DNA of 64,000 nucleotides from NCBI GenBank assembly GCA_000004985.1, contig GG738910.1. One strand, given 5' to 3'. Made by a program: the position numbers and the translations under genes. The notes under the pieces were generated by a model. That model saw nothing but the letters and a program-made list of their open reading frames with translations. It searched no databases and was not told where the DNA came from. The stretch is from Naegleria gruberi (taxonomy: Eukaryota). Positions 29,701 to 63,395 of this stretch are shown in pieces; position 1 is the first letter of the stretch; each line of letters begins with the position of its first letter.

Positions 29701-32700
29701 ACAACAGAAAAACCTCTCAACATTATTGCCAGGGGCGAAAACGTATTTTACTATACAGATTCCACTTCATTGTACATGATTAACCAATCAGTTATTAGTA
29801 CCATTGCAACAGGATTTGATAGTCCTTATGGATTGTTCTATTATTCAAATACGTCCAACATGGAGGAAAGTTTACTAGTTGCAGATACCAATAATAACTC
29901 AATCAAGAAGGTATCTCTCTCTGATAGACAAGTTACCATAATTCTTTCTAATTTGAATTCTCCTAAAGGACTATTCATTGATTCTTTTGGTGATCTTTAT
30001 ATTGCTGACAGTGGATCAAACCAAATTTTAAAGTATTCAGGAGGTGTTTTGAAGGTAATTGCAGGAACATCCAATTCCTCAATGAATGGTACAGATGGTG
30101 CAATCAATTCACTTCAAGCAATTCTGCACTCTCCTAGTGATCTTATTGTAACAGATGAAGGAATTATTTATTTCACCGATTCACAAGGATATGCCGTGAA
30201 AACTCTCACTCCTGTTTGTGATAAAATTTCCATGTATGATCCAATTTTAAGAAAGTGTTTCCGACCTCTACTTTGTTTCAATTTTGGTATTGATGATAAG
30301 AGAGCTTGTAGCTCTAATGGTCAATGTGTTGCAGAGAATACCTGTAATTGTAATGATAATTGGGGAGGGGATGATTGTTCCATTCCATCATGTTTCAACA
30401 TTTCTGCTTCAAGTACCACTACGGTTTGTTCTGGACATGGTTTGTGTATTGATCATAATACTTGTCGATGTGATACTGGTTGGTCTGGTGCTGACTGTTC
30501 AATTGCATCATGTTATGGTATCAAGGGTGATAACAGTTCAGTATGTTACGGAAATGGCCAGTGTGTCGGTTTTAATCAATGTTCTTGTAATAATGGATGG
30601 TCTGATTTCGATTGTTTGACACCTTCGTGCTTTGGCTTGACCTATGATTTGGATTCTTCATGTTCTGGAAATGGCAAATGTATTTCTAATGATACTTGTG
30701 AATGTTATTTAGGTTATCAAGGTCCTGATTGCTCTACAGTGTCAGTCGATCCATTCCAAGTATACAATCCAGTACTAACTGTTAAGACTATTGGTTCTTT
30801 GAACAAACCAAAAGGAGTTACAGTATCTTCGAGTGGTGATATTTATTTCAGCGATACTAGCAACAATAAGTTGAAGAAGATATTACAATCTGATTGGTCT
30901 GTATCTCTTATTGCTGGAACTGGTACTGGTTCGTTTTCAGGTGATGGATCTTCACCAACAGCAGCCACTATTAATAATCCTATTGGTTTGGATATTACAG
31001 AAAACGGAGAAGTTTATTTTGCTGATTCAAATAACAATAGAGTTAGAAAATGTAGTTATGATGGTAAATTAATCTCGACAGTGGTCCAAGTTACATCTCC
31101 TCAACAAGTCAAAATTGACGAATACAATAATCGATTGTGGATTGTTGCTTCTGGAGGAGTTTACATGTATGATTTGAATATTGCAAATATGACCCTTGTA
31201 TACAGTAATGATCTCAATACTCCATTCGGAATTGATATTGGATATCAAGGTAAAATAGTGTACATTACAGACAAATCAAATCATGTTATTAGAAAGCTCG
31301 CAAAAAGAGGTAATTCATATGTTCAATCTATTTATTTTGGAAGTAAGGGAGTAACTGGAACCTACTCATCAACATCTAATATGAATAACCCAATGGGTAT
31401 ATCAGTAACTAATGGTAATAGTATTATATTTTCTGATTCCTCTAATCATGTAATTAAACTGATTTCTCATGGAGTTAACAAGACAACATCAGTTATTGTT
31501 GGTACTGGATCTTCATCAGGTTATTCAGCAACAGAAACTAAACCTCTTTCCATGGCTCTAAATACTCCCGGTGATGTATTTGTGAATGAGAAAGGAATTT
31601 ATATTGCTGATACCAATGACAACGCCATTAGAATTATTAAGATTTCATGTCCATACACTAACTATGTTTTCAATTATTATACTTCCAAGTGTGAATTTGA
31701 TACCAGAATTTCTTGTAATAAGATTTCATTTTCTTCACCAAATGTTTGTAATGGTAAAGGTGTTTGTTATGGAGTTGATAAATGCAACTGTACAAGTGGG
31801 TGGAATGGTACTTTTTGTGAAATACCTATTTGTTTTGGAGTGTCCAATCCAAAACTAGCTTGTAGTTCAAATGGTCAATGTATTTCTAACAATACTTGTT
31901 CCTGTAATGATGGTTGGTTTGGATCTATTTGTCAAAATCCATCTTGTTTTGGAATTTCATATAATGATTCAAATACCTGTTCTGGAAATGGTCAATGTAT
32001 TGCAAATAATACTTGCTCGTGTGATAATTTTTACGAAGGCAAAAATTGTTCTCTTCCAAAATGTTTTGGTATTAATTCAGACAGCTCATTGGTTTGTAGT
32101 GGAAATGGTTTATGCGTTAGCCCAGATACATGTAATTGTACTAGCGGTTATTTTGGAAATGATTGTTTTTACACAAATTGTTTTGGAATATTGTCAGGAG
32201 AAACTACTGTATGTTCCTCAAAAGGAAACTGTACTGCTCCAAATACTTGTTTTTGTGAAAAAGGGTATTATGGGAATCAGTGTCAAAACTTTACTTGTTT
32301 TGGAATTGACTCATTCAGCCCCAATGCTTGCTCATCTCGTGGAAGTTGTATTGACATCGATAAATGTAAATGTGGAGATGATTTTTATGGTTCTAATTGC
32401 ACAGGGTTTGATTGCTTTGGTTATCCATCAACTAATCCAAATACTTGTTCTGGTAAGGGTGATTGTTTAAATCCAAACACTTGTATCTGTAATGATGGTT
32501 ATGCAGGTGAAAGGTGTGAAATTGCTCGTTGTTTTGGAGTTTATGGAAATGAATCAAACGTATGTGATTCACATGGTGAGTGTGTATCCTTAGATAACTG
32601 TACATGTACATCACTTCATCATTATGGAGATAATTGCGATAGATTTGATTGTTTTGGAATTGAGAGTAGCAATTCAAGTGTTTGCTCTTCCCATGGAAAT

Positions 32701-35700
32701 TGTACTTTCCTTGATATTTGTAATTGTTCGAAAGGTTACGAAGGTTTATCATGTTCTGAATTCAATTGTTTTGGAAAAAAGCCAATCGCTTCTGATATTT
32801 GTTCTGGAAATGGCATTTGTACTGGTCCAAATATATGTAATTGCAAAGATGGGTATTTTGGAGATGATTGTCAGATAACCAATTGTTATGGAATTCATAG
32901 TAATGAGTCTAGTGTATGTTCATCAAATGGTAGATGTATTTCTTTAGATTCTTGCTCTTGCTCTTTTGGATATTATGGAGAGATGTGTCAAGAATATGAT
33001 TGTTTTGGAATGAAACACTCAAATACAAGTGTTTGTTCACAACATGGAACATGTCATTCTCCAAATAATTGCACTTGTAATGATGGATATCATGGTGCAG
33101 ACTGTGATAGATTCAATTGTTTTGGAGTTTCTTCTTTCAATAGTTCAGTATGTTCATCAAGAGGTTACTGCAAATTACCAAATGTCTGTTCTTGCACTGG
33201 AACTTTTTATGGTGAAAATTGTGAACAATATGACTGTTTTGGAATCAATTATCAAAACTCAAATGTTTGTTCCTCACACGGTAAATGTATTGGGGCTGAT
33301 GCTTGTCAGTGTTATGATGGATATATATCTAGTAATTGTTCTGTTCCTCTTTGCTTTGGTATTTCAGCTCTTAACTCGTCAGTTTGTAGAGGACATGGTT
33401 ATTGTACTTCACCTAATAAGTGTGACTGCATTTCGAATCAAGATACAAAGTTTGATGGACAGGAATGTCAAAATCATTTCTGTAAGGAATACGATGGAAC
33501 CTTAATAAGGTTTAACAATAATTCAGTTTGTAGTGGTTCTGGAGTTTGTAAGTTAAATCGAGTCATGAAGAGAAGCGAATGTGTATGTAGTGAAAATTAT
33601 GGAGGAGAGTCTTGTGAAATGCCAAAATGTTTCGGTATTTTACAAAATGAGACAAGTGCTTGTAACAACAATGGATTTTGTTCAAGTGTAGATACTTGTG
33701 AATGTCATCATAATGATTTTTTTGGATATTGGAAGGGTTCTAATTGTACACAATGCCAAGTTCCATATTCTGGATCCAAATGTAATGTTATTAAGGAGTG
33801 CAATGCTTCTGTCTGTCATAACAATGGTATTTGTGACGAGTACATGACTTGCATTTGTAATTCTAATCAAACACATGGTTTCTGGAATGCAGAATTTTGT
33901 AACGTTTGTCAAGAAGGTTATTATGGAAAGGAGTGTTCCACGCAAATGCTTGGCCCTCTTAAATTAAGTGGAGAGGCATCATCCATGACATTCAAGATGA
34001 ATGCTCCAATTTCATTTTCAAAGACAAGTGTTAACTGTACAAGATTTTTGAGGGAAGATTCTTATGAAACTGTTGGAGGATTGCAATCTATTTGTTCTTG
34101 GAATAATAGTATGATGAAAGTGACATTTGGTGCTTCATTTGATGTTAAATCAGGTAGAATTATTTATTTGAATAGATTGGTCTTTGATGAGAGCGGATAT
34201 GATTACGAACCGATCAAATTGGAATATCCAGATACACCAATCCTTCCTACTGCCATTGTCGAATCAAACAAATTAGTTGGATCTTGCGACAGTATTATAA
34301 TTGATGGAAGTAAGAGTTACTCTCCTGATTCTAAACCTCTTTCATTTTCTTGGAAAGTTGTTAATTCTCCAAATATTAATAGTTTGCAACACATTGTACA
34401 ATCACAAACAAGATCTATTCTTTCCATTGATAGTAGCAATTGCTCTACAGGTGTTCACATTTTCGAGCTGATTGTAAAGAGTTCTATATTAGAATTACAA
34501 AGTATTCCACTAACAATTTCCATCACTAAGGCAGAAATTCCTCTACCAACTATTTCCATAGATGCACAAGCCTCCCCTCTCACAACTTCAAAGTTACCAT
34601 ACAAGATAATGAAAAGTACTGTTTTGCCTGATTGTGCTCAATCTTTGAGTATGATATATAATTGGAAGCTGGTGAGCGGTAGAAACGATATTGTTTTTGA
34701 GATGGATCAATTTAATAATTTAGTAATTATCAATTACTTCCTGGAAGATTCAAGTTATGAATTTGAATGTAGTGTATTTGTGGAAGGACATGCAGAAAAT
34801 ATTATTACTTCAAAAGTTTCCTTTAGTACCAAGATTAGTCCTTTATCTTCTGAAATCAGACTTGTTGAATTATCAACCAATTATACTATTATTCAATTAT
34901 TGTTCAGGGATCCAGAAATTGTTAATGAAGAGGTTAATGTTGAATGGGAGTGTATTGATTTGGACACCAAACTGAATTGTTCATCGTCACTTCTTTCCCA
35001 TCTTTCAACTTTACCTCTTAACTCTGAATTTTTAATATCTGGAAGTTTGTTATCAAATTACAACAACATATCCTTGAAATCTACTATCAAGAAGGGAAAG
35101 AGAATTTCCAATAGTGAACTCGTAGTAACCATTCCTCAAAAAACACTCCCTCCAATTATTTCACCTGTTTATCTGTCGCCAAGTAATTTAGCTCTAGGAT
35201 CGAGTATTAATCTTCAATTTGGTGTAACTATCGATGGAAGTGATGACATTAGTTCAGCTATTAGTAGAAAATGGACTCTCAACAATGTTGTTATTGAAAA
35301 ATCAGATAGTATGAGACTGGATCCATCTGAATCCAACTCCTTAATATTAGCAACTAATTCTTTTACAGAAGGGGCCACATACAAGATTGATTTCAAAGTG
35401 ACTGACCAAAGAAATAATCAATTTTCAATCTATTCCTATTCTTTTTCAATCAAGATTTCTCCAAAGTGTACATGTACAATTAGTCCATCATCTGGTTATG
35501 CTCTCCAAACTCTTTTTACATTTGCATGTACTGATTGTAAAAATAATCAAGGACCTTTATCGTTCGAATATGGCTTCATAGATAGTCGTTACCAAACTAG
35601 AGTAACCTTATCAAAGAGTTCTAAATATTCGGCCGTTCTCCCATCCTCTTATCAAGGAAATACATTGAATCTGTATGCTGTTGTTAGTGACTCTGTAAGT

Positions 35701-37050
35701 CAATCATCAAGTTATTTGAGTGCAGAAGTTCTTGTACCTGTCATTGGTTCACTAGCTGAAGCAAAGAAGAAACAACTTCAATGGAAAACAACAGGTTCCT
35801 CACTCAAAGATGGTGATTATATGAAGAGTGTGTATAGCAATGATGTTATGACAAGTACTTTCACAAAGATGATTGCCTCTTTACTATCAGCAAGATCTGT
35901 TTGTAACGGAAAAGGAGTTCTAAATAATGGAAAATGTCAATGTGATAATGGGTATTCTTCATTTGATTGTAGATATACCACTTCTGATTATGTATCCATT
36001 CAAGAGAGTGTATTTGATTTATCTAACGATTTTAAAGAAACATTTGGTGTTTATCTAGATTCCAAAGATATTCTAAGCGAAAAGTTTGTTGCCAATATTA
36101 TTTTCGGACTTGAAACTTTGACAAATCGTTTTGATTTCTTGAATGAGACATCTTTTGACATTATCTTATCAATTGTTGATCATTTATTGGAAGAACACGA
36201 AAAGTATTCATCAGTTCAAACATCCAATGGTGTAGATACGCTCTTACTCGATATTTTGGATCATTTATATTCTTTTACAGAATATTATGAGATTAAGGAA
36301 CAATTAATGAGCAAATTAATTGAAATTTCCCAAAGACTCTCTTCACTTGAATCAAGAAAAATATTGGTCGGCCAACCTCCTTTAATTCTTTCCAATCAAT
36401 TACAAACTTCAATTACCAACAAACATTTTAGAGAGGAATATTCAGGACTAGTAATTAGATATAATAATTATTCTACTATACTACCAGAGTCTTTCTCAAA
36501 GCATCTATCCAATCAGCCAAAGAGAGTACCAGTTACTTACAGTTGGTTTGCTCTTAAAGATCTTTCACAATTCATATTACCAGGAAATGCATCAAGAATT
36601 ATCTCAAAATATGTTGTGAAATTCACATTGGAAAAGGTTAAATATTTGGAATTATTGAAAGAACCTGTGAAATTTGAAATACCACTCATTGAACCAATAG
36701 ACATGAATTCTAATAAGTATTCCTGTATTGACTTTTCCAACATGACAATGCCAGTGGAAAGTGAGTGCCAATTTAAAGTGGAAAATGGAATAGCCTCTTG
36801 TTCTTGCTTAAACTACTCAAGTACCGTTGGAATAACATTCTTTGAACGCAGTCGAAGAGCTCCATCAATTCTTGCAGTTAAAACTGCACCACTTTGGGAA
36901 TTATTCTCTCTACTCACAATTCCATTTGCAATAATTTTGGTTGGTTGTGCATTCACAATTAAAACGATTTTTAACAGAAAAATCAGCCTTGACAATAATC
37001 AATTCGAATTGAGAAACGTGGACAGCATGATTGTGACGGAATCAGCTTAA
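23745..37050 (+). CDS. Giant (about 4,400 aa) secreted type I membrane protein. Domain order: NHL beta-propeller(s), interspersed single EGFs, array of more than 25 tenascin-type EGF repeats, laminin-type EGF, PKD/REJ-like region, CxC-ISP module, GPS-like motif, TM, 26-aa tail
   Basis: Exon 1 is 23745..24735, starting MATFIQEKQMAVSKGAQKSSIISTMMMIIFVCLLFLANSIRG with a signal peptide and NHL motifs (IYIAEKGNHVIRKV, IYIADSGNNRVRKV). A 49-nt intron at 24736..24784 (GTATGT...ATAG, phase 1) follows. Exon 2 is 24785..37050, the 4,078-aa ORF. The EGF array spans about 31650-33950. Other landmarks are the KCTCTISPSSGYALQTLFTFACTDCKN motif, ASCSCLNYSSTVGITF juxtamembrane, and TM LFSLLTIPFAIILVGCAFTI. 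The 5' end (gaaccttaaaaaaatg) is shared with the 46962 gene. Confidence 0.8.
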
Positions 37051-38253: not shown

Positions 38254-41200
38254 TTAAACAGACTTCATTTCAACTCCTTGTTTTGAGGAATTTGTAGTTT
38301 CTGGTTTCATTCTCTTAACAACACAATAACCAAAAATTCCCAATACAATAAAGGCAATAATGATAAAGCAAATAATCAAAAAAGCCCACAAAATCCAGAA
38401 TAACTCAGAGATTCCCTTTGGAGTTTCAGGATTAACTTGTTTTTCAATTGGAACAGATGATAAAATACCAACTCTAACATTTTCTGAACATTCACATTGG
38501 CCAGAATTAGAATTGAAGGAGAATTTACATGAAGAAGCATCAATGACTTGACCATTTGTAACTTGAATGCACGAATAAGTTGCCTTATCATTAAAAGTTT
38601 GTGTAAGTGGCAAGGAATGAGTTATTGGAGAGGAATAGTTTGTAATAGATGTTGAGAATTTAATTTCAGATAAATCAGAGACAATAGTATTAGTTGTACC
38701 TTCTTGTTGAGGAGTTACATATTGAGAAACATCCTTAATAATCATCCAAATGTAATTGACTGGCTTTCTGAGAGAGACACTTTGTAACCTTTGAGAAACA
38801 GTTGAAGGAAGAGTTAATGAAGTTTGACTTTCTGTCAAAACTTGTGAATCAAAAGTATTCTTAAATTGCTTGTTGAATTGATGAACTGCAAAATTAGGTT
38901 CAAACTTGAAAGATGATTGACCAACAAGAACCTTTCTTGAAAGTAATGAAACCACCATGTGACAACTTTCCATCAATTCTGAATAGTCATACGAAGGCAA
39001 AGTCTTTAAATAAGAATGCATGGAATTGAGGGACGAAAGCAACAACCTTTCAACACCAACTTCAAATTGGAATAATGGAGTGTTTTCAGCATCATTCAAG
39101 GTTGACTTGATAATATTCATACTCATGTTATAGACATTAGCAGAAACGTAACTCTTCAACATAGATTCAATACCGAACATAATGTTAGTAAAAAACCTTC
39201 CAGTTATCTTTTCTCCATTTTCATTCTTGACTTGTTGGGAAGAAAAGAAAGCAGTAGCCAAATCTTGAGTAATTTCATTCAAAATTTCATAATCTTCCTT
39301 TGTCATTCTACAGTCAAATGTTGTGTAATCAGCCTCACAAACACATTTTCCATTAACCAATGAACCATGTCCAGAACAATCTTTCTTTACACTTCTTGAT
39401 TTAGGGGCGAGAGAATCTGTCATTCTCTTGAGGACTCTTGAAATGATTGCAGAATTGAAAACAGATCTAGCATAATCACCAGTTGGTAATAATAAGGTGA
39501 TGGCGTTCCATTTTGTCATGTACTCCTTGATATCCTTTACCTTTGATACATATGGAGCTGTAATTTGAACTGATTTCTTGGAAAGAGTTGTTGCAGATGT
39601 TTCAGTATCAATAACCTTAACATACAGTTCAAGATTATTACCAGAATTTGGAGTTGGAAGTTTTTGGTACAATTCTTCATCCTTTGATAAGGTAATTAAA
39701 GCACCTGAGAAATCATCAATAAAACCATATTCGAAAGCATAAGTCTTCTTATCATTTTGACAATTTTCACAATTGAAAGTAAAGATTGTGGTCAAAGCAA
39801 TACCAGAAGTTGGACTAATGGCACAACTACATGCTTTTGGAGGTCTGTTAACAGAGAAGGAATAAGAATATGATGTCTTTTGATTATTTCTCTTATCCAA
39901 GATAGTTAATGAAATGGTATTAGAACTACCTTCATCCAAATATTGAGTATCCAAAATTAGAGAATTTGACAATGATGAACTGATACTCATTGGTGATGTT
40001 AATATAGCATCAATAGCCTTGTCATTCAATAACCATGTTCTTGAGATGAATTGATCTATATTTAAATCACCATTAATAGTGACAACCAATTGAATATTGA
40101 CATAATCTCCCTTATTAACCTTTGAAGAAGATACTTGAACAACGGAGATCAAAGGTGGCATGATTAAATGTTCTGCTTGTTGTGGAAAATTCAAATCAAC
40201 TGATGATTGAACAAATCTACTTCCCTTTCGAATAGTGAGGCTAATTCTAACATTTTCTGCTGAACCAAACATTGACTTTTCAATCTTGTATTGTTCAAGA
40301 AAACCTTGAGACAAGTAATTAACAACATCAACTGGACAAACAGTATTAGTAACAGTGTCCACACATGTCCAAGAATAAGTTGGTTGAACATTTTCAGATT
40401 CTGGATCAGTGAAATCAATTCCAATGGTACTGTATTGAGGAGTAGAATCTAAAACATACATGTTCATTGAGAGTGCTTGAGCTACAGTGTCGATAGTGAC
40501 AAGAGCTGTTGAAAATTTGTTAACATTAGAAGTATCGAAAGCAGAGACTTTGAAAACATATTGTCTTGTTTCAATGGTATTGAAATTGGTAATCTTTAAA
40601 TTCTTGAATGAATCAACTGTGAATTCTACTTGAGGACCACTGATTTGTGTCCATGTGTAATCAATATTTGCAGCAGATTCCATGCATATTGGAATGGACA
40701 GCTTCTTCTTGAATGAAATTGGAACGTCACTAGTCTTGACAGTAACTGAACTACTTTTATATAAGCCATCAATGGAAACAACTGGAACAGCATAGGTAAG
40801 TTTGGTGAAACTGAATTGAATCTTATCAACCAATGAATAAACTTGACTAGTTACAGCCAATTCAAATTGATGAACACCAGCATTCATACCAGAATAGCTA
40901 ATATTCAATTTACTTGGGGAAGCAAGAGTAGAATCCAATAACTTTTGAAGTTCTACCTTATTTGGTGATGACAATACAGTCCATTTGAAATTCAATGTCT
41001 TTCTATCAGGGGAATAACTTTCAGAAGCATCAATTAAAACATCTTCACAACTTCCATAAGTGTCCTTAGCTCCAGATATTGTGGCAATCGGACTCTTTGG
41101 TGATAAAGCACCTTGGACAGTAAATGCCAAATATTGAGCATTGACATTATTTGATTCAAAGTATAAATTATTCAAAGAGATACTATCACCTGCCTTCAAT

Positions 41201-43920
41201 TTGTAGTCCGTGTTAAGTTCAATTGAGAATTCAAACGTTTCCTTGTTAGACCAGTAACATTTTGGATTAGTTCCAAGAAGATCAATACTCTTCAACAACT
41301 TGTTACAATCAAGAATCATACTATTAGTATATAAAGAAGAATAAGATGCAGGTGCAATAACCTTAAATGTCAAACCAGTCAAATCATCCATAAAAAGAAC
41401 TGGTCCAATAATCTTTGTTGAACACAATTCACCATAAACTCCATCTGCACAGGTAGAACAAGATTCACCCTTCCAGAAACCTTTCTTGTTATCTGCATAA
41501 CAAGTACATTGTTCAAGCTCATTACAATAACCATTTCCACTACAAGTAGTTGAGGCATTACATTTAACCAAACTATTACACATAGCTCCTAAATAAGGAG
41601 AAACACATGCTGAACAATCTGCACCAGTCCAATAACCTTTGCCAGCTATGTTATCACAGACACAAATATTCAAATCTGTACATTGACCATGTCCAGAACA
41701 AACAGATGAAGCATTGGAAGAAATGCCACCACAAGTGAATTGAGCACAATGACTTCCGTAATATCCAGATTGACAAGAACAATGATCGAAAAAATCACAT
41801 CTACCTTTTCCATAACATGCTGACGCATTTGTTGAGGCAGTTCCATAACAATCAAATTGACTACAATCATATCCAGTAGTATCCATCTAAACAGGAGCAA
41901 TTATTTGGGGAGATGCAACCACCATGTCCATAACATGCTGAACCACTTGTTGAGGCAGTTCCATAACAATCAAATTGACTACAATCATTCCCGTAGTATC
42001 CATCTAAACAAGAACAATTATTTGGTGAGATGCAACCACCATGTCCAGAACATGCTGATGCATTTGTGGAGGCAGTTTCGTAACAATCAAATTGACTACA
42101 ATCATTTCCGTAGTATCCATCTAAACAAGAACAATTATTTGGTGAGATGCAACCACCATGTCCAGAACATGCTGATGCATTTGTGGAGGCAGTTTCGTAA
42201 CAATCAAATTCACTACAATCATTTCCATAATATCCAGCTAAGCATGAACAGTTATTTGGTGAGACACAACGACCATAACTAGAACAAACTGAACCACTTG
42301 TTGAGGCAGCTCCAAAACAATCAAACTCAGCACAGTCATTTCCGTAATGTTCGTTAGAGCATGAGCAATTATTTGGTGAGATGCAATCACCATGTCCAAA
42401 ACAAACTGAACCACTTGTTGAGGCAGTTCCAAAACAATCAAACTCAGCACATTCATTTCCATAGTATCCAGAGGTGCATGAACAATTATTTGGTGCAATA
42501 CAATAGCCATTTCCAGAGCAAGCTGATGAATTACTTGGTGAAATATCAAAACATTTGAAAGAACTGCAATCTGATCCACTATATCCAGCTAAGCATGAGC
42601 AGTTATTTGGTGAGAGACAGGTTCCATGAACAGAACATGCTGATGCACTTTTTGAGGCAGTTCCAAAACAATCAAATTGGCTACAATCATTTCCATAGTA
42701 ATCGTTTGAGCATGAGCAATTATTTGGTGAGAGACATATTCCTTGAGAAGAACAAACTGATGAAGAAGTAAATAATGTACCAAAACATTCGTATTCACTA
42801 CAATTACTACCATAGTATCCATAGGTGCATGAACAATTATTTGGAGCAATGCAACTACCATGACCAGAACAAACTGATGCATTACCTGGAGCAATGTCAT
42901 AACATTTGAATAAACTACAATCAGCACCACTGTATCCAGATAAACAGGAGCAATTGTTTGGAGCAACACAACTTCCATGTCCTGAGCAAACGTTGTGGTC
43001 AGTATTCAAAATATCACTACAATTAAAAAGTTGACAATCTGCACCAAAGTAATTTGTTTCACATTTACAAGTATCTATGGCTGTACATGTTCCGTGGCCT
43101 GAGCAAACAGTTGAGTTGTCACCTGAAATTCCATTACATGTTGGATATTGACAAGTGTTTGGAGCAACACATGTGGTATATTGAGGACATGCTTTTGGAT
43201 GTGTGGCCACAATACCATTACACTTTGGAGTTTGACAATTTGAACCACCCCAAAGTACACCATAATCTGTCAAGCTGCCAGGAGGAAAAAAAGTATCCTT
43301 TCCAAACCCATGGAAAGGAAAAGTTAAACAAGCACCTTTAGTATTGTTAGCGAAATAATCAGACACTTGAAGTACTAACCTTCTAAAGAATAAAGAACCA
43401 TGTTCCCATCAACTTGGAGAACAAATTTGAAAGGTGGAGACTGACTAGCACACTCACCAGTTTTCATGGCTTCCCTGTGTTGATTCAAATCTGCCTTTTC
43501 CGTGTTACCGTCGTACAATTTAAGAGAACCAGTTTGTGTTAACACTAACTTATAACCATCAGTTGCTGGGCCGAAAGTAGAACTATACCGAGTCATTGTT
43601 CTGAGACCTATCTGAATGAGACTACCATCATCGTTCAAGATTAAAGTCAACTTTCCATCAGCAGATGTTAATGCTTTAGTTGCATAGAGAATTGGTGATT
43701 GTTCAGTGAGGCCTGTTTTTTCTGAAAGATCAACACAGAGGCAGCTGTTTTCACCATAGCAAATATTCCCTCCACAAGTCGAATTGTCTGTTCCAGGAAT
43801 TCCATTACAAGTATATGAAGTAACCTCACTGATTATGAAAAGCAAAAGGATTACCAACACCGACACGAACAGTTTCATGTTGTGGATTTTTTTTAAAGTC
43901 GAATTTTCAAATTGAATCAA
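38254..43920 (-). CDS. Large (about 1,870 aa) secreted type I membrane protein. Domain order: signal peptide, bulb-type (GNA-like, beta-prism II) lectin domain, about 19 tenascin-type EGF repeats, laminin-type EGF, PKD/REJ-like region, CxC-ISP module, GPS-like motif, TM, tail ending in KSV. It has one intron and one apparent +1 frameshift
   Basis: Exon 1 is 43920..43380 (MKLFVSVLVILLLFIISEV signal peptide). The lectin signatures are GKLTLILNDDGSLIQ, YKLVLTQTGSLKLYD and FKFVLQVDGNMVLYS (QxDxNxVxY type). A 44-nt intron at 43379..43336 (GTTAGT...AAAG, phase 1) joins ...LYSLE-G-ACLTFPFHGFGKD in frame. The EGF array is then continuous to 41867. At about 41884-41890 (tactacTggatatgattgt) one extra base breaks the repeat consensus ...CSCLDGYYG(N/Y)DCSQFDC..., and the downstream 1210-aa ORF (41886..38254) continues the same array in the other frame. 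Further landmarks are the ACSCAISPTSGIALTTIFTFNCENCQN motif, GQCECSENVRVGIL juxtamembrane, and TM at about 38330-38400. Confidence 0.72.
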
Positions 43921-46961: not shown

Positions 46962-49900
46962 ATGAACCTTAAAAAAATGAAAACATTTCTTGTTTGCTGC
47001 TTGATTTTAATAATCATTTGCACTGTCTCATCNNNNNNNNNNNNNNNNNNNNNNNNNNNNNNNNNNNNNNNNNNNNNNNNNNNNNNNNNNNNNNNNNNNN
47101 NNNNNNNNNNNNNNNNNNNNNNNNNNNNNNNNNNNNNNNNNNNNNNNNNNNNNNNNNNNNNNNNNNNNNNNNNNNNNNNNNNNNNNNNNNNNNNNNNNNN
47201 NNNNNNNNNNNNNNNNNNNNNNNNNNNNNNNNNNNNNNNNNNNNNNNNNNNNNNNNNNNNNNNNNNNNNNNNNNNNNNNNNNNNNNNNNNNNNNNNNNNN
47301 NNNNNNNNNNNNNNNNNNNNNNNNNNNNNNNNNNNNNNNNNNNNNNNNNNNNNNNNNNNNNNNNNNNNNNNNNNNNNNNNNNNNNNNNNNNNNNNNNNNN
47401 NNNNNNNNNNNNNNNNNNNNNNNNNNNNNNNNNNNNNNNNNNNNNNNNNNNNNNNNNNNNNNNNNNNNNNNNNNNNNNNNNNNNNNNNNNNNNNNNNNNN
47501 NNNNNNNNNNNNNNNNNNNNNNNNNNNNNNNNNNNNNNNNNNNNNNNNNNNNNNNNNNNNNNNNNNNNNNNNNNNNNNNNNNNNNNNNNNNNNNNNNNNN
47601 NNNNNNNNNNNNNNNNNNNNNNNNNNNNNNNNNNNNNNNNNNNNNNNNNNNNNNNNNNNNNNNNNNNNNNNNNNNNNNNNNNNNNNNNNNNNNNNNNNNN
47701 NNNNNNNNNNNNNNNNNNNNNNNNNNNNNNNNNNNNNNNNNNNNNNNNNNNNNNNNNNNNNNNNNNNNNNNNNNNNNNNNNNNNNNNNNNNNNNNNNNNN
47801 NNNNNNNNNNNNNNNNNNNNNNNNNNNNNNNNNNNNNNNNNNNNNNNNNNNNNNNNNNNNNNNNNNNNNNNNNNNNNNNNNNNNNNNNNNNNNNNNNNNN
47901 NNNNNNNNNNNNNNNNNNNNNNNNNNNNNNNNNNNNNNNNNNNNNNNNNNNNNNNNNNNNNNNNNNNNNNNNNNNNNNNNNNNNNNNNNNNNNNNNNNNN
48001 NNNNNNNNNNNNNNNNNNNNNNNNNNNNNNNNNNNNNNNNNNNNNNNNNNNNNNNNNNNNNNNNNNNNNNNNNNNNNNNNNNNNNNNNNNNNNNNNNNNN
48101 NNNNNNNNNNNNNNNNNNNNNNNNNNNNNNNNNNNNNNNNNNNNNNNNNNNNNNNNNNNNNNNNNNNNNNNNNNNNNNNNNNNNNNNNNNNNNNNNNNNN
48201 NNNNNNNNNNNNNNNNNNNNNNNNNNNNNNNNNNNNNNNNNNNNNNNNNNNNNNNNNNNNNNNNNNNNNNNNNNNNNNNNNNNNTAACTCTAAGTACAAT
48301 GGTGATTATCAATATGCAACAAATGCCAATTTGAATTATCCATTGGGTGTTTTGATTACACCTAATGGAGAAATGATCATTTCAGAAACATACGGTAACA
48401 GGATTCGCAGAGTATTAACAAATGGAACTATCATTCCACTGGCAGGGAGTGGAAGTTCAAATGATTGTGCAGGTATTACAGCATCTAACACTCCATTGGT
48501 AAGTCCAAAAGGAACTTATTTTAGTGCGAATGGAGATATTTATGTAGCTGAAACTCAAGGTCATAGGATTAGTAGAATTTCAAAGAATGGAATGATTGAC
48601 TCTATTGCTGGTACAGGTAAATTTGGTTTTAATGGAGATAATTTATTTGCTACAGATACACAATTATCAAATCCTTTTGCAGTTGCCTTTGATCTAGAAA
48701 CCCAATTGATTGTCTCAGATTCTGGTAATCATGTCATTCGTAAAATTCTTAGAAATGGAACAATGGTCATTATTGCTGGAACTGGACAATCAGGATATAA
48801 TGGAGATGGAATTGATGCTAAGATTGCAAAATTAAATAATCCATCAGGTATTGTTGTGGATTCTAAAACTGGTGAGCTTTTTATTGCTGACACTGCTAAT
48901 AATAGAATTAGAAAGATTTTAACAAACGGTACTATAATAACTATTGCTGGAACAGGTGAAACAGGATATAATGGAGATGGAATTGATGCAACAAGCGCTC
49001 AAATAAGAGGCGTGTATGGTATTGCCCTTGATGTTAATTCTGAGCTCTACATTGCTGATGCTAATAATTATAGGATTAGAAAGATTTTATCAAATGGAAC
49101 AATTATAACTATTGCTGGAAATGGAGGCTATGGTTTCATTGATAATGTTCTTGCAACAAATGCCAAACTTGCTTTCGTTAATGGAATTGCTGTAGATACG
49201 AACGGTGAAGTTTATATTACTGAGTCTGAGAATGGATTTTCAAATCATCGAATTCGTAAAATATTGACAAATGGAACCATTATAACATTTTCAGGAACTG
49301 GTTCAAGAGGTTATTATGGTGATAATGTGGAAGCAGCTGATGCCAAATTCTATACTCCTTATTTCGTTTCTGTTCGCCAAACAACAGGTGAGGTGCTTAT
49401 TTCAGATACTGGAAATAATTTCTTGAGATTGGTTTCAACAACTCGTCTATGCAATGGAACTCTAGCAAGTGATCCTATGGTTTGTAGTGGGCACGGAATA
49501 TGTTATTTAACAGATGTTTGCACTTGTAACCCTGGCTATATTGGTTCATTATGTGATGTTGTGGCATGTAATGGTTTCAATTCGAGTGATCCTAGAGCTT
49601 GTAATGGACATGGTATTTGTGAAGGACCAAACATTTGTAATTGCACTACAGGTTATGTTGGTTCATTTTGTGATGTTTCTTTGTGTTATGGTTTCAATTC
49701 GAGTGATTCAAGAGTTTGTAATGGACATGGTATTTGTGAAGGACCAGATATTTGTAATTGCAGCACAGGTTATATTGGCCCACTATGTGATGATGTGGCA
49801 TGTGATGGTTTCAATTCAAGTGATTCAAGAGCTTGTAATGGACATGGTATCTGTGAAGGACCAAACATTTGTAATTGCAGCACAGGTTATATTGGTTCAT

Positions 49901-52900
49901 TTTGTGATGTTGTGGCATGTGATGGTTTTAAAATAAGTGATCCTAGAGCTTGTAATAGACATGGTATTTGTGAAGGCCCAAACATTTGTAATTGCACTAC
50001 AGGTTATGTTGGTTCATTTTGTGATGTTTCTTTGTGTTATGGTTTCAATTCGAGTGATCCTAGAGTTTGTAATGGACATGGTATTTGTGAAGGACCAGAT
50101 GTTTGCAATTGTACCACAGGTTATGTTGGTTCATTTTGTGATGTTGTGGCATGTGATGGTTTCAATTCAAGTGATTCAAGAGCTTGTAATAGACATGGTA
50201 TTTGTGAAGGCCCAAACATTTGTAATTGCACTACAGGTTATGTTGGTTCATTTTGTGATGTTTCTTTGTGTTATGGTTTCAATTCAAGTGATCCTAGAGT
50301 TTGTAATAGACATGGTATCTGTGAAGGCCCAAACATTTGTAATTGCACTACAGGTTATGTTGGTTCATTTTGTGATGTTTCTTTGTGTTATGGTTTCAAT
50401 TCGAGTGATCCTAGAGCTTGTAATGGACATGGTATTTGTGAAGGACCAGATGTTTGCAATTGTACCACAGGTTATGTTGGTTCATTTTGTGATGTTTCTT
50501 TGTGTAATGGTTTCAATTCGAGTGATCCTAGAGTTTGTAATGGACATGGTATCTGTGAAGGCCCAAACATTTGTAATTGCAGCACAGGTTATATTGGCCC
50601 ACTTTGTGACGNNNNNNNNNNNNNNNNNNNNNNNNNNNNNNNNNNNNNNNNNNNNNNNNNNNNNNNNNNNNNNNNNNNNNNNNNNNNNNNNNNNNNNNNN
50701 NNNNNNNNNNNNNNNNNNNNNNNNNNNNNNNNNNNNNNNNNNNNNNNNNNNNNNNNNNNNNNNNNNNNNNNNNNNNNNNNNNNNNNNNNNNNNNNNNNNN
50801 NNNNNNNNNNNNNNNNNNNNNNNNNNNNNNNNNNNNNNNNNNNNNNNNNNNNNNNNNNNNNNNNNNNNNNNNNNNNNNNNNNNNNNNNNNNNNNNNNNNN
50901 NNNNNNNNNNNNNNNNNNNNNNNNNNNNNNNNNNNNNNNNNNNNNNNNNNNNNNNNNNNNNNNNNNNNNNNNNNNNNNNNNNNNNNNNNNNNNNNNNNNN
51001 NNNNNNNNNNNNNNNNNNNNNNNNNNNNNNNNNNNNNNNNNNNNNNNNNNNNNNNNNNNNNNNNNNNNNNNNNNNNNNNNNNNNNNNNNNNNNNNNNNNN
51101 NNNNNNNNNNNNNNNNNNNNNNNNNNNNNNNNNNNNNNNNNNNNNNNNNNNNNNNNNACCAAAATTCAAATGTTTCGACTCTAGTTACCATTCAAACAAG
51201 CTCTGAACAATTATATGCAAACCTTTTTATTGATACTATTTCCAGTAAGAAGGTAACACTTGTGGTTGCAAATCAAGATTTAGAACAAAGTAATGAAGCG
51301 GAAACTTGGAGTTACGTTTGTCAAGATGAAAATTTTACTAATTGTGGTCAGACAATTGCCAATATTCTCTCGAATTATGCTTCTATCAAATCTAAAACTT
51401 TGGAATTATCAGCAGATAATTTCCCATCCATTGATTCCACATATTCAATTACTTTAAACATTGTAAAGGGAGTAAGAAGTTTTTCATCTTTAATTTCCTT
51501 GAAATTTCCAAAAGAAAACCAAAAACTTCCTCCAATAGTTAACTTATTGAATGTTATTCCAAATAGAAACAGATTAAGCAAATCTGAATTTTTGAATTTA
51601 CAAATTTCTGTCACTAACAGTGATGGATTGGATGTCAAAAATTTAAAAAGAGAATGGAAATTGAATGGACAATCAATTGATGATAACTATTTAACCAAGA
51701 TGAGTACAGCATTATCAGATTCTAACAATATCGTTTTAAGTATCACCTATTTAGATGAAGGTTCATCTAACGTATTGACATGTCAAGTCACAGATTTGGA
51801 TAGTCAATTGTCAAGCACTTTTAGTTACTCATTTTCAATTATTACATCACCTAAACCATGTCCATGTTCAGTTTCACCATCTACAGGATATGCGTTAGAA
51901 ACAGAATTTACCTTCTCATGCACAAACTGCCAAAATAAGGACAATACTCTAGCATTTAGTCTATCATTTGTAGATGATAAATCTGGAGCTCTTATTCCAC
52001 TTGTAATTGAAGGTGGAAACACATTTACCACAAAGCTTCCATATCCAATTTCCAATCCATTAATGTTTGACATTACAATTGTTGACATAGAGACACTTGC
52101 ATCAGTTCAAAACTATCAAAACATTCAGATGATTTTACCAAAAGCAAGTTCTGTTCGTGAAGTCAAAACAAAAGTTGCCAAGTGGAATACTTTCCAAACT
52201 TCACTTCAACAAAATGATTTGAGAAGAATGATTTTCTCATCTGCAATTATTTCTAGAACCTCTGAGGCAATGATTTCAGCAATCAGTGGAAGAAGATCTA
52301 TTTGTTTGAACGGCGGAGTTTATAATTCTCAATTAAGAAAATGTATTTGTGTGAATGGATACAAAAAGAAAGATTGCAGCCTTAATGAAGAAGATTTCAC
52401 ATTGTTAACTGAATTTAAAGGTGAATTATTTAATAACTTTTTATTTGCATTCAAAAACAGACAAGAACAAATGTCTGAAATGTATATCATCTATCAATTA
52501 TATGGCTTGGATTCACTTTTATCAAATTATGATGAATTGAATGCTGAGATGTTTGCAAATGGAGTCCAATTCTTCAAGGATTTAATATCTTCCGCTGTTA
52601 GTGTTTCTAATTTACATCTAAGACCTGGAATTGACAAATTAACTCAAAATATTATCAACTCACTTTACAGATATTTGATTTATAATGGATGTATTGAAAA
52701 GGAATGTTTGAGAGATCATGTTATTGAAATGATAAGCATGTTGAAAGAAATTTCACAACTATTACTCAGATCCAAACTTGTAGGAGAAAGTGATCTGAAA
52801 TTAGACACTGATTTTATGGTGTTATTGACAAATAAGAACTATAGATACCATTTCAATAGTTTGAAAGTTCAAAATTTAACTTTACCTACCAATGATGAAG

Positions 52901-53529
52901 GAATTTCTTCAATTAATAACAGAATGCTATTGTCTTTCATTTCAACTAGTTCACATAATTTGGCCAACAAAATTGAGTCAACAATTGAAGTTTATGAGAA
53001 GGTAGAAAATAATAGAAAAGAGACTCAAACAATCACCAAGGATTATTCTATTACTTCAAATGTTATAAGTTTTTCCTTTTTAAGAGACCTCCAAATGAAT
53101 CAATCCATTTCCTTCTCCTTCCCTAGAAATGATCAATTTTCCGCAAGAAGCGAGCAATCATTCGAATATTCATGTATTGTAATTTGGAATATCACTCAAG
53201 TTAGACCAGAAAATGAAAATAATAATTGTAAAATAGTTGTCAACCAAGAAACAATTATTTGTCAATGTCCATATCAAAACCAAACTCAAGTAGGTGTTTT
53301 GAGAACAGCCATTTCGAGACGTGTTTCAGTTGAACAAGTAGCTCAACCTTCAGATTCAAGTAATTTACTCTATCTATTATTTTTACTCTTTTTAGTATTG
53401 TTTATTATTTTAATTGTAATAATAATTGGAATTGTTATTGTATGTCTGGTTAAAAGAAGGAGAAATGGTGGTAGTAAAAAGTCAGCAGCACATGTTGAAA
53501 TGGAGACTGTTAAAACTTCGACAGTTTAG
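46962..53529 (+). CDS. Large secreted type I membrane protein interrupted by two assembly gaps. Domain order: signal peptide, [gap], about 8 NHL repeats, at least 9 near-identical 40-aa EGF repeats, [gap], PKD/REJ-like region, CxC-ISP module, GPS-like motif, TM, tail ending in STV
   Basis: ATG at 46962 (or 46977) opens MNLKKMKTFLVCCLILIIICTVS, which then runs into the N-gap. The frame reopens at 48285 (...NGDYQYATNANLNYPLGVLITPNGEMIISETYGNRIRRV...) and is continuous, through the second gap as X, to TAG at 53527-53529. Landmarks are the PCPCSVSPSTGYALETEFTFSCTNCQN motif, IICQCPYQNQTQVGVL juxtamembrane, and TM LLYLLFLLFLVLFIILIVIIIGIVIVCLV. Exon structure inside the gaps is unknown. Confidence 0.68.
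47033..48284. other. Assembly gap (1,252 N) inside the 46962..53529 gene
   Basis: Run of N. Confidence 1.
49555..50611 (+). repeat. Coding tandem repeat, period 120 bp (40 aa: CDV(V/S)(A/L)C(D/Y/N)GFNSSD(S/P)R(A/V)CN(G/R)HGICEGP(N/D)(I/V)CNC(T/S)TGY(V/I)G(S/P)(F/L)). There are about 9 near-identical copies, running into the gap at 50612
   Basis: Successive 120-nt units differ at only a few positions. The array is truncated by the N-gap, so the copy number is unknown. Confidence 0.8.
50612..51157. other. Assembly gap (546 N) at the end of the 120-bp EGF tandem array
   Basis: Run of N immediately after repeat unit 9. Confidence 1.
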
Positions 53530-61075: not shown

Positions 61076-63395
61076 TTATAGTCTGGAAATAGGCTAGATG
61101 TGTTCCATATTCAATAATCTATATGAAAAAAAGAAGAAATAAAATTAACTCTTGAATTGAGTATGTAACGACTATTGATATTACTATATATGGTATTTGG
61201 ATAATAACTTTCACAGAAATCATTCATGAAACATAAATTGTACTAAAGTGTGTTAGAAACATAATGGTGGTAAACCTGATCAATAACTCGTCGAAATGAC
61301 TGAGATGGAATGTAAACTATGGTCCAAATGTCATGTATTTGTAACTAAACAGTGTCAACTCCGCCAAAGTGCTTTAAACTAGATTGATATCATCAAAAAC
61401 ACTTCTAGACATCACATATGCCATAAAGAATGAGTTTCAATATTTGATATTGTGAATAGACTCTGTTGGATACCATCCCTATAAATATAACGAGATGAAA
61501 AGTGTCAACATTCAATTTCACATACATGTTACTATGAAGAGTCATCATTATATCATCTAGATAGGTAATATTTCAAGTTTCAGTGGAATTGACAGTCTAC
61601 ATATTGAGATGTGTATACTAAGGTTGAAGAAGTGTCACCTTCACTGATTACTGACATGAATATAATAATTGAATATATGATTCTTGTATAATTAATTCAT
61701 TATTCAATGATTTTGATATGATGGTAAAATTTAATTTTGAAATTAAGATTCTTCCCTATTGATTACCTTATATGTTCCTTAGTTGACTTGAAGATATTGA
61801 GCCATGAATATGAAACTTTCTCAGATTGTTCTCCTCATCAAGAGGAGTGTATTCATATTTGATACTTGTATGATATTTTGTAAAATGAATGAGATGGAGT
61901 ATATTCTATTTGTTGAAATGTGACAATTTGACAGATTGTTATTATAATCATATTGAATTCAATTCTAACAGACTAAAATTGATACCATATGTATAATAAT
62001 GTGATTAAATGTATCTGGCAAAGTTACATGATGATTGGACGTACTTTCACTGATATGGAGTGTACACTTGGATAAAAGCACTATTGACATTGAACATTAA
62101 CTGACTGACTAATTGAAAGTAATACGAATTGTTTCCAAACTATATACAGTGTATTTAACGGATGTATACTCTATGTGGCATCAATTCTAGATTGATTGTA
62201 TGTATAATGAGCGAGTTGGAGCATAAGCTTTGATTTTATGTCAAAGTTCTATAGTAAAATGATAGAGTTGACAACTCGACATCTACTGAACCAATATTTA
62301 TGAAATTGATATCATATGCTAATTAGAGTGTCTAGATATCATGATACCAATTTCAGTGAAAATGGAGTTGTTTCTGTACATTTCAGATTTCATCCATTCT
62401 CTTGAAGTATCACCATGTACTATCTACTGAATGCATTTCTTGAAATGAAAATATATAATTTGAAGATAGTCCACTTTATATGAGATGTAGAACACGATAT
62501 TATCATTTATTTTGAGATTGGTAACTTTCCCTATAGTATCATCCTTAATTGTCTTAATTGACTAAAAAAGCTCAAGGAGAGATTTCAAAACATAAAATAA
62601 AATATATTTTCGAGATGTACTAATGATTTCCAATCGATTGATATGTATTTTGTAGATTGAGGATTTGGTTCTCTATATTCAAGATTTTCCTCCTGATCTT
62701 CCAAGACAACCTTGAAATTTCACCCTTTACCTTACTGAAAGATAGAATATTCTCTAAAATGTCTGAAAATTGAACCATATACATTATTTGAGATGTTAAA
62801 CATGGTGGTAAAGTTTCATAGAGTGGTCATTTTCCAGATTTTCATCCATGTTCACAGTTTACTAATTGGTATGATAGAGTTGAAATCATGAACATGAAAG
62901 TGAAAATAAACTTGATTTTCTATCTCTACACATCGAATGGAGCATTTTCATGTATATATTGTTGGTTGAAGTGATGTATTTGATAGAGTTGGTCTGACTT
63001 GTCTTTCTCTAAAGTCAACCATAAAATATCAACNNNNNNNNNNNNNNNNNNNNNNNNNNNNNNNNNNNNNNNNNNNNNNNNNNTTCTCATGGTACCATTT
63101 CTGATTATTAGGACATGAAATTGAATTCTATATCATTCTAGATCGTGTACATCACTTTGGTAAAGTTTCAATAGGTGGTCCTTTATCAAGATTTCCACCT
63201 TTTCATCATAGTTGACCATGTGTGGTTGAGGGAAGAAATCTTTAAATATGAAAGTTAAAATAAATTTGATATTCGATGTTTACTAAACAAATGGAACATT
63301 TTCATGTCTGGATTCAATATGTTTTGATGAGAAACTCAAAAGTTATAGTTGACCTCTTTTACCTCACATCTTCCCTTTTCACTTGATACTTTTAT
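61076..63395. repeat. Subtelomeric tandem duplication, copy 2; contains a 50-N gap at 63034..63083
   Basis: See copy 1. Similarity ends at about 63395, about 300 bp before the telomeric array. Confidence 0.7.
63034..63083. other. Assembly gap (50 N)
   Basis: Run of N. Confidence 1.

What the first reader, a model, noticed from the sequence alone, without database searches (positions are those of the whole stretch)
41860..41900. Apparent +1 frameshift inside the EGF array of the lectin-headed gene
Reading the minus strand, the repeat consensus ...CSCLDGYY-G-(N/Y)-DCSQFDC... is broken by one extra base in tactacTggatatgattgt. The upstream ORF therefore ends in ...GYYWI*, and the downstream 1210-aa ORF begins in the next frame with TTGYDCSQFDC. 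No GT-AG intron of plausible size (39-54 nt here) can bridge it. The break is therefore either an assembly indel in a tac-tac-t slippage context, or a real inactivating mutation that makes this paralogue a recent pseudogene.
Basis: seen in the sequence. Interest (0 to 1): 0.5.

Follow-up and report, generated by a model that had tools for sequence, protein, structure and literature searches.

The report
One-base frame break in Naegleria gene
A single extra base breaks the reading frame of a large surface-receptor gene of the amoeba Naegleria gruberi; the public annotation hides it behind an invented 73-base intron, and it is either a sequencing error or a very recent null mutation, which is ordinary either way.

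Summary
On the minus strand, GGATACTACTGGATATGATTGT (41884..41863) has 22 bases where ten sister 117-nt EGF units have 21. The upstream frame stops at TGA 41869..41867 (…GYYWI*). The +1 frame then stays open for 1,210 codons.

The window is the Naegleria gruberi NEG-M reference scaffold. The gene is NAEGRDRAFT_74099 (XP_002670973.1, 1,835 aa). That model matches the window translation in 647 + 1,187 residues. It differs only by splicing out 73 nt (41892..41820) across the break.

I judge this "intron" an annotation workaround:
- It is the shortest frame-restoring GT-AG.
- Its donor, GTTTAG, lacks the G+5/T+6 found in all nine real introns of the window (39-61 nt).
- Minus one base, it is 67/72 identical to coding segments of the two preceding units. 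Those segments carry the same ends and are kept as exon.
- Removing it deletes three cysteines.

There is no frameshift-stimulating RNA structure. Removing one base gives an intact 1,859-aa protein: signal peptide, lectin-like head, EGF array, REJ/PKD region and one transmembrane helix.

No independent copy of the locus could be found. I therefore cannot separate a consensus error (about 50%) from a real, very recent null allele (about 40%). The finding is ordinary and of low interest.

The parts
38254..43878 (-). Whole gene NAEGRDRAFT_74099 (XP_002670973.1 / EFC38229.1 / UniProt D2VYF2), from ATG at 43878 to the stop at 38256..38254. With one base removed it encodes an 1,859-aa type-I membrane protein.
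   Evidence: The database protein is identical to the window translation in 647 N-terminal and 1,187 C-terminal residues.
43380..43878 (-). Exon 1: signal peptide (MKLFVSVLVILLLFIISEVTS) and a GNA/bulb-lectin-like head containing QVDGNMVLY.
   Evidence: No Pfam hit. E 7e-11 to the N. gruberi 'B-lectin domain-containing protein' P0038. Weak hits to garlic agglutinin 1bwu/1kj1.
43336..43379 (-). Genuine 44-nt phase-1 intron: GTTAGT...CTAAC...AAAG.
   Evidence: P0001 reads ...YSLEGACLTF... across it.
41797..42991 (-). Tandem array of 117-nt (39-aa, 6-Cys) EGF units. The units starting at 42235, 42118 and 42001 are nearly identical at the DNA level.
   Evidence: Tandem repeat finder, in-register alignment, Pfam EGF_2 3.8e-55.
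41863..41884 (-). The frame-break site GGATACTACTGGATATGATTGT: 22 nt where sister units have 21. On the simplest reading the extra base is the T at 41875.
41867..41869 (-). TGA that terminates the upstream frame (...GYYWI*).
41820..41892 (-). The 73-nt GT...AG segment that the reference gene model removes as an 'intron'. Here it is judged to be EGF coding sequence and an annotation workaround.
   Evidence: model replaces CLDGYYGYDCSQFDCYGTASTNASA with S. (shortest frame-restoring GT-AG). (67/72 identity to coding units with the same ends; GC 0.37 against 0.20-0.33 in real introns). (donor consensus).
38254..41866 (-). Downstream part of the CDS in the +1 frame: the last EGF units, a PKD-like domain, the REJ domain, a juxtamembrane EGF, a transmembrane helix (FWILWAFLIICFIIIAFIVLGIFGYCVV) and a short tail.

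Best explanation
The deposited Naegleria gruberi NEG-M scaffold carries one spurious extra base inside the coding sequence of NAEGRDRAFT_74099. This gene is a signal-peptide / lectin-like head / EGF-array / PKD-REJ / single-TM surface protein.

I think the most likely cause is a consensus (base-calling or assembly) error of the 2010 Sanger draft within a tandem array of near-identical 117-nt units. On this reading the real gene is intact and encodes about 1,859 aa, reading ...CLDGYYG(Y/N)DCSQFDC... through the site.

The JGI gene caller could not read through the break. It bridged the break with the shortest available GT-AG pair (73 nt), producing the deposited 1,835-aa model, which lacks 24 residues of two EGF domains.

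- **Shown here:** the extra base, the identity of the locus, and the artefactual nature of the 73-nt intron.
- **Inferred, not shown:** that the base is an error rather than a real mutation.
For: - **Single lesion in an otherwise intact gene.** This is the only defect in 5.6 kb of CDS. Removing one base gives an uninterrupted 1,859-codon frame with complete domain architecture.
- **Family members are continuous.** Intact relatives of the same length and architecture exist, with single alignments spanning the junction: P0034 (1,853 aa, 90% coverage), P0013 (87%) and P0004 (86%).
- **The scaffold is draft quality here.** There are three N gaps in 64 kb. One gap (50612..51157) lies directly after the neighbouring gene's 117-nt EGF array. 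This shows the assembler struggled with this repeat type.
- **Sequence context.** The extra base is not in a homopolymer or microsatellite, where real indels concentrate. It sits beside one or two further base differences, in a block otherwise identical to the sister unit for the next 42 nt.
- **The 73-nt intron is not credible**.
  - Its donor, GTTTAG, compares with 9/9 window introns that have G+5 and T+6.
  - It is 67/72 identical to two upstream coding segments that carry the same GTTTAG...TCAG ends and are retained as exon.
  - Removing it cuts the cysteine count in the affected segment from 14 to 11.
Against: - No reads, traces, second assembly, transcript or orthologue could be obtained. 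The error hypothesis is therefore untested.
- Sanger consensus at normal coverage is accurate. The site lies about 5 kb from the nearest gap, not at a contig end.
- The neighbouring substitution falls in a codon that varies among units anyway (A/S/N/S...). The "clustered differences" argument is therefore weak. At about 5-8% divergence between units, one extra difference within 6 nt is expected roughly one time in three.
- My rough estimates of erroneous versus real heterozygous coding frameshifts in such a genome are of the same order. They rest on remembered, unverified coverage and heterozygosity figures.
Confidence: 0.5

Rival explanations
1. The extra base is real. It is a very recent one-base insertion, most plausibly one allele of this heterozygous, long-cultured axenic strain, or newly fixed in it. 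The insertion truncates the protein after the 11th EGF unit. The product would be a secreted ~650-aa lectin-EGF fragment or, after nonsense-mediated decay, nothing. The 3.6-kb remainder would be untranslated but not yet decayed: a null allele or nascent pseudogene.
For: - The sequence as deposited says so.
- The gene belongs to a very large, fast-evolving lineage-specific family. 23 of the best 120 hits are other N. gruberi EGF proteins, the nearest only 30-36% identical. No orthologue above 43% identity is found in N. fowleri or N. lovaniensis. Loss of one member should be tolerated.
- A prey- or surface-recognition receptor is plausibly dispensable in axenic culture (inference).
- Sanger consensus is usually right.
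Against: - No second disabling lesion exists in 1,859 codons. I assume about 4-5% of substitutions create stops and an indel rate of about 10% of the substitution rate. Under these assumptions, neutral decay must be below roughly 0.4% divergence. The event would then be of polymorphism age, which is indistinguishable from an error.
- The insertion is not in a mutational hotspot context.
- The scaffold is draft quality around these arrays.
Confidence: 0.4
2. The reference annotation is right. The segment 41892..41820 is a real 73-nt spliceosomal intron, possibly a newly "intronised" piece of exon that rescues the frameshift. The protein would then be the deposited 1,835-aa form.
For: - GT...AG ends and the length (73 = 3n+1) restore the frame without stops.
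- It is the model in GenBank, RefSeq and UniProt.
- 73 nt is within the annotated intron range for the species, whose mean is 203 bp (PMC8296547).
Against: - The donor, GTTTAG, has A+5/G+6. All nine junction-supported introns in the window have G+5/T+6 (GTRAGT, GTATGT, GTTAGT, GTAGGT) and are 39-61 nt long.
- There is no CTAAC-like branch site near the acceptor.
- GC is 0.37, against 0.20-0.33 in the real introns.
- After removal of one base, the segment is 67/72 identical to the homologous segments of the two preceding units. Those have the same GTTTAG...TCAG ends at 72 nt and are kept as coding in the same model.
- It encodes consensus EGF sequence, CLDGYYGYDCSQFDCYGTASTNA.
- Its removal deletes Cys5, Cys6 and the next Cys1, leaving a hybrid with an odd cysteine count.
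Confidence: 0.05
3. Programmed +1 ribosomal frameshifting at AUA-UGA-U (antizyme- or Euplotes-like). This would give ...GYYWI-DCSQFDC... with unit spacing preserved.
For: The 0-frame stop lies immediately at the shift point. A +1 slip on the UGA would restore the exact 39-aa unit length.
Against: - Any one-base skip between the insertion and the stop preserves spacing, so this feature is not diagnostic.
- There is no stable downstream structure: -17 kcal/mol against a shuffle mean of -20.3, z = +1.0.
- The ten sister units and all family members read straight through.
- There are no orthologues in which to test conservation.
- To my knowledge, no such mechanism is known in Heterolobosea.
Confidence: 0.01

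Closest known systems
Deposited gene model NAEGRDRAFT_74099 (XP_002670973.1, EFC38229.1, UniProt D2VYF2), Naegleria gruberi NEG-M
   Same: It is the same locus. 647 N-terminal and 1,187 C-terminal residues are identical to the window translation, and the 44-nt first intron is the same.
   Different: The model removes 73 nt (41892..41820) as a second intron, replacing 25 EGF residues with one Ser. I read that segment as coding sequence containing one extra base.
Spurious short introns placed by ab initio or homology gene callers to bridge frameshifts in draft eukaryotic assemblies (a known annotation artefact)
   Same: - It is the shortest available GT-AG of length 3n+1 spanning the break.
- The splice signals are non-consensus.
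- The 'intron' is homologous to exon sequence.
- The domain is damaged by its removal.
   Different: Nothing distinguishes this case from the artefact. Read evidence to prove it is not available here.
Recent unitary pseudogene or segregating loss-of-function allele in a lineage-specific multigene family
   Same: There is a single disabling frameshift in a member of a large, fast-evolving family.
   Different: There is no second lesion and no sign of relaxed constraint that could be measured. The lesion cannot be shown to exist in the organism.
Programmed +1 frameshift sites (antizyme UCC-UGA-U; Euplotes AAA-UAA/UAG)
   Same: A stop codon lies in the 0 frame at the point where a +1 shift is needed.
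   Different: There is no stimulatory structure, no conservation, and the sister units are unshifted.
REJ-domain receptors (sea-urchin suREJ, polycystin-1 family) and teneurin/tenascin-type EGF arrays
   Same: Pfam detects REJ (6.6e-22), a K319L-like PKD domain, and EGF_2 / EGF_TEN arrays in an extracellular region followed by a TM helix.
   Different: It has a single TM helix and a 20-aa tail, and no GPS, PLAT or 11-TM channel part was detected. Its head is lectin-like. This is a heterolobosean expansion, not an orthologue of the animal proteins.

Membership tests
Spliceosomal intron of N. gruberi (the 73-nt segment 41892..41820) | GT...AG termini, with removal restoring an open frame | tested here: met
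   73 nt, GT/AG, no stop after removal. It is the shortest such candidate.
Spliceosomal intron of N. gruberi (the 73-nt segment 41892..41820) | Donor matching the local consensus GT[AGT][AGT]GT, with G+5 and T+6 | tested here: not met
   The donor is GTTTAG. All 9 junction-supported introns in the window have G+5/T+6. The sample is small and comes from the window only.
Spliceosomal intron of N. gruberi (the 73-nt segment 41892..41820) | Non-coding sequence, not homologous to exon | tested here: not met
   The segment is 67/72 identical to the coding segments of the two preceding EGF units, which carry the same ends and are retained as exon. It translates to consensus EGF sequence.
Spliceosomal intron of N. 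gruberi (the 73-nt segment 41892..41820) | The spliced product keeps the domain structure | tested here: not met
   Removal deletes 3 cysteines (14 to 11 in the segment), leaving an odd number in a hybrid EGF.
Spliceosomal intron of N. gruberi (the 73-nt segment 41892..41820) | A spliced junction observed in transcripts | not testable with these tools
   No ESTs or RNA-seq are reachable. The protein and contig look-ups found nothing.
Programmed +1 ribosomal frameshift | A shift-prone site with a 0-frame stop or rare codon in the A site | tested here: inconclusive
   AUA-UGA-U is present. AUA/UAU re-pairing is not a known slippery combination; this last point is from my own knowledge.
Programmed +1 ribosomal frameshift | A stimulatory downstream RNA structure | tested here: not met
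   MFE -17 kcal/mol, z = +1.0; 175 of 200 shuffles fold at least as well.
Programmed +1 ribosomal frameshift | Conservation of the shift in homologues | tested here: not met
   Ten sister units and all family members are unshifted. No orthologue exists to test.
Decayed pseudogene | Multiple disabling lesions or loss of coding signal | tested here: not met
   There is only one lesion. 1,859 codons are otherwise open, with all domains detected.
Recent null allele (real one-base insertion) | The extra base is present in independent reads from the organism | not testable with these tools
   No independent N. gruberi data were found. Only one N. gruberi genome is public according to PMC9928731.
Consensus or assembly error | The extra base is absent from good-quality reads or from another assembly | not testable with these tools
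   The same limitation applies. There is only circumstantial support, from gaps next to EGF arrays.
Bulb-type (GNA-like) mannose-binding lectin domain (the 'lectin head') | Match to the B_lectin profile, or a QxDxNxVxY motif | tested here: inconclusive
   - No Pfam hit even at E<=10.
- One QVDGNMVLY motif is present.
- E 7e-11 to an N. gruberi protein named as B-lectin.
- E 5e-4 to garlic agglutinin chains.
REJ-domain receptor | A REJ domain above the Pfam gathering score | tested here: met
   PF02010: 78.2 bits against a cutoff of 25, E 6.6e-22.

The most novel reading that the evidence does not exclude
The extra base is real, and the cell partly rescues the gene by using the latent GTTTAG...CAG pair as a newborn 73-nt intron ("intronisation" of exon sequence after a frameshift), or by +1 ribosomal frameshifting at AUA-UGA. 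Either would be a caught-in-the-act example of a frame-rescue mechanism in a heterolobosean.
Probability: 0.04. Interest if true: 0.55.

Novelty: already known. Interest (0 to 1): 0.1.

Why it matters
It matters little biologically.

Its practical value is as a curation note. The public protein XP_002670973.1 / D2VYF2 very probably lacks 24 residues of two EGF domains, because a spurious intron was drawn over a one-base frame break. The locus should either be corrected to 1,859 aa or flagged as disrupted.

It also illustrates two wider points. Some annotated N. gruberi introns may be frameshift bridges: the mean annotated intron is 203 bp, against 39-61 nt for the well-supported ones in this window. 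And tandem EGF arrays are weak spots of this draft assembly.

Tried and rejected
**Searches for independent evidence (all negative)**
- Exact-protein look-ups for the 1,835-aa model, the 1,210-aa ORF and the 499-aa ORF, in assemblies and Logan contigs, found no encoding contig. Only the single RefSeq entry turned up.
- A degenerate DNA pattern for YGKGRCDFFDHCSCQ gave 0 matches in JGI metagenome contigs.
- A protein-guided locus search with the unique 412-aa region after the EGF array found 29 pattern matches, none of them a relative.
- A full-text search for the gene and protein accessions found 0 papers.
- The supplements of an N. gruberi proteomics paper held 0 occurrences.
- The 2010 genome paper is not held. 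Assembly coverage and heterozygosity figures are therefore from memory only.
- Homologue search: nothing above 43% identity apart from the gene's own model. No orthologue or strain comparison is possible.

**Explanations rejected**
- A short intron: none shorter than 73 nt restores the frame.
- The 73-nt intron.
- Programmed frameshifting.
- Two separate genes: the downstream ORF would start MDTTGYDC with no signal peptide ahead of an extracellular EGF/REJ region.
- Termination-reinitiation at the overlapping ATG (41886), for the same reason and because it would follow a 650-codon ORF.

**Arguments dropped**
- \"Clustered differences\" as evidence for a base-calling error turned out to be weak.
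- The low GC and all-frame ORFs at 46-48 kb are N-gap artefacts, not biology.
Full report
**1. The observation**

The frame break is real in the sequence, at the stated coordinates.
- The minus strand at 41900..41860 reads ...tgctcctgtttagatggatactacTggatatgattgtagtcaatttgattgt....
- The region belongs to a tandem array with a 117-nt period, i.e. 39 aa and six Cys per unit.
- Cutting the array in register and aligning the units shows ten sister units with 21 nt across GGA-TAY-TAY-GGN-NNN-GAT-TGT. The unit beginning at 41884 has 22 nt.
- The upstream frame (ORF 41867..43366) ends ...CSCLDGYYWI, with TGA at 41869..41867.
- The +1 frame (ORF 38254..41886) begins MDTTGYDCSQFDCYGTAS... and runs 1,210 codons.
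- The chance probability of such an open frame at this base composition is about 3e-42.
- The downstream ORF carries EGF, PKD-like and REJ domains.
- Deleting one base gives ...CLDGYYGYDCSQFDC... and a single 1,859-codon CDS.
- Which base is the extra one is ambiguous. The options are a T after TACTAC plus AAT>TAT, or GGN>TGG plus AAT>ATAT. In neither case is it in a homopolymer.

**2. What the locus is**

The window is the Naegleria gruberi NEG-M reference scaffold.
- A search with the repaired protein returned one near-identical entry. It is a 1,835-aa "predicted protein" of Naegleria gruberi on a 243,952-bp contig.
- Its accessions are EFC38229.1, XP_002670973.1, NAEGRDRAFT_74099 and UniProt D2VYF2, and it is the sole member of its cluster.
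- It is identical to the window translation over the first 647 and last 1,187 residues. It differs only in replacing CLDGYYGYDCSQFDCYGTASTNASA by a single S.
- The window's 33% GC agrees with the published figure for NEG-M (PMC8296547).

The gene has this structure:
- ATG at 43878;
- a signal peptide;
- a head with one QxDxNxVxY motif, which is weakly GNA-lectin-like. It has no Pfam hit, E 7e-11 to an N. gruberi protein named B-lectin, and E about 5e-4 to garlic agglutinin;
- a genuine 44-nt intron, 43379..43336;
- the EGF array, followed by PKD-like and REJ domains;
- one TM helix and a short tail.

The gene sits in a cluster of giant NHL/EGF/REJ genes. It has no close paralogue or orthologue. 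The next-best hits are 30-43% identical, and 23 of the best 120 are other N. gruberi proteins.

**3. The annotated 73-nt intron**

The deposited model bridges the break by removing 41892..41820 (73 nt, GT...AG). I enumerated every GT/GC-AG pair of length 3n+1 that spans the stop and leaves an open frame. This pair is the shortest, and nothing in the 39-54 nt range exists. Length is not a valid objection, because the mean annotated intron in this genome is 203 bp (PMC8296547).

Four other tests reject it:
- **(a) Donor.** Nine introns in the window are supported by ORF junctions. They are 39-61 nt long, with donors GTGAGT, GTAAGT, GTAGGT, GTAAGT, GTGAGT, GTAAGT, GTAAGT, GTATGT and GTTAGT. All have G+5/T+6. 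The candidate's donor is GTTTAG.
- **(b) Composition.** Its GC is 0.37, against 0.20-0.33 in the seven real introns measured.
- **(c) Homology to exon.** After removal of one base it is 67/72 identical to the homologous segments of the two preceding units. Those begin GTTTAG and end TCAG as well. They are 72 nt long and are kept as coding sequence in the very same model.
- **(d) Protein consequence.** Removal deletes Cys5 and Cys6 of one EGF and Cys1 of the next. This leaves 11 instead of 14 cysteines in that stretch.

I conclude that it is a gene-caller workaround and give a real intron (or "intronisation") about 5%.

**4. Other mechanisms considered**

- **Programmed +1 frameshifting.** A slip at AUA-UGA-U would preserve unit spacing, but so would any one-base skip at this point. 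The 105 nt from the site onward (41884..41780) fold no better than shuffles (z = +1.0). The sister units and all homologues are unshifted. I give it about 1%.
- **Two separate genes, or reinitiation at the overlapping ATG (41886).** This would yield an extracellular-type protein without a signal peptide. Rejected.

**5. Error or real mutation?**

This cannot be settled with the data reachable here.
- No independent copy of the locus was found in assemblies, Logan contigs or metagenomes, by exact protein, DNA pattern or protein-guided scan.
- Only one N. gruberi genome is public (PMC9928731).
- No paper or proteomics supplement mentions the gene.

Evidence that leans towards a consensus error:
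- It is the single lesion in 5.6 kb.
- The insertion is not in a hotspot context.
- The scaffold is draft quality, with three N gaps in the window. One gap (50612..51157) lies directly after the neighbouring gene's 117-nt EGF array.

Evidence that leans towards a real, very recent null allele:
- Sanger consensus is generally reliable, and the site lies about 5 kb inside its contig.
- The gene belongs to a large, fast-evolving, probably dispensable family.
- The adjacent substitution falls in a codon that varies among units anyway.

If the lesion is real, the absence of any second lesion bounds its age. I assume about 4-5% of substitutions create stops and an indel rate of about 10% of the substitution rate. 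That puts the age below roughly 0.4% neutral divergence, which is polymorphism age.

My order-of-magnitude estimates of erroneous versus real heterozygous coding frameshifts in such an assembly are similar. They use coverage and heterozygosity figures recalled from the 2010 genome paper, which I could not read.

I therefore give about 50% to error and about 40% to a real mutation.

**6. Comparison with the known, and verdict**

The locus is already in the public databases. The frame break is of a familiar kind: a one-base indel in a draft Sanger assembly, or a fresh loss-of-function allele, masked by a spurious intron.

Its either/or interpretation is essentially right. It needs correcting on the existence of the annotated 73-nt GT-AG, on the "slippage" context, and on how close a "paralogue" this is.

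Interest is low (0.1). The useful outcome is a curation note for XP_002670973.1 / D2VYF2, together with a simple read-level test that would settle the cause.

Noticed in passing
window 47033..48284, 50612..51157, 63034..63083: Runs of N (1,252, 546 and 50 bases), i.e. scaffold gaps. They explain the apparent GC of 0.16 at 46-48 kb. They also explain the ORFs 'open in every frame' at 46962..48334 and 50482..51191. The second gap directly follows a 117/351-nt EGF array, 49537..50609.
   Followed up: yes
window 6253..8367(-), 10284..12452(+), 16292..22405(+), 23445..37050(+), 48331..53529(+): The window is a cluster of very large genes combining NHL repeats, teneurin/tenascin-type EGF arrays and REJ domains. 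One is over 4,500 aa, joined across a 49-nt intron at 24736..24784. This looks like a lineage-specific expansion of surface receptors in Naegleria.
   Followed up: partly
window 14489..14542 (+): An in-frame TAA at 14519..14521 lies between two same-frame ORFs (14150..14521 and 14525..14833). It sits inside a plausible 54-nt GTAGGT...AAAAG intron, so it is probably not a second disrupted gene.
   Followed up: partly
window 9860..9901, 10072..10132, 14823..14862, 15673..15713, 16199..16237, 24736..24784, 43379..43336: The well-supported introns here are tiny (39-61 nt) with donors GTRAGT, GTATGT or GTTAGT (always G+5/T+6), and some have CTAAC near the 3' end. This contrasts with the published mean annotated intron length of 203 bp for the species. 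Some annotated introns may therefore be model artefacts.
   Followed up: partly
window 42235..41885 (-): Three consecutive EGF units (starting at 42235, 42118 and 42001) are nearly identical at the DNA level, while earlier units are about 75% alike. This suggests recent unit duplication or homogenisation at the 3' end of the array. The frame break lies in the next unit.
   Followed up: partly
window 43380..43878 (-): The N-terminal head has a single QVDGNMVLY (QxDxNxVxY) motif and weak similarity to GNA/garlic-type lectins and to lectin-like bacteriocins. It matches no Pfam family even at E<=10. It may be a divergent β-prism II lectin domain shared with at least one other N. gruberi EGF protein (P0038).
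   Followed up: partly
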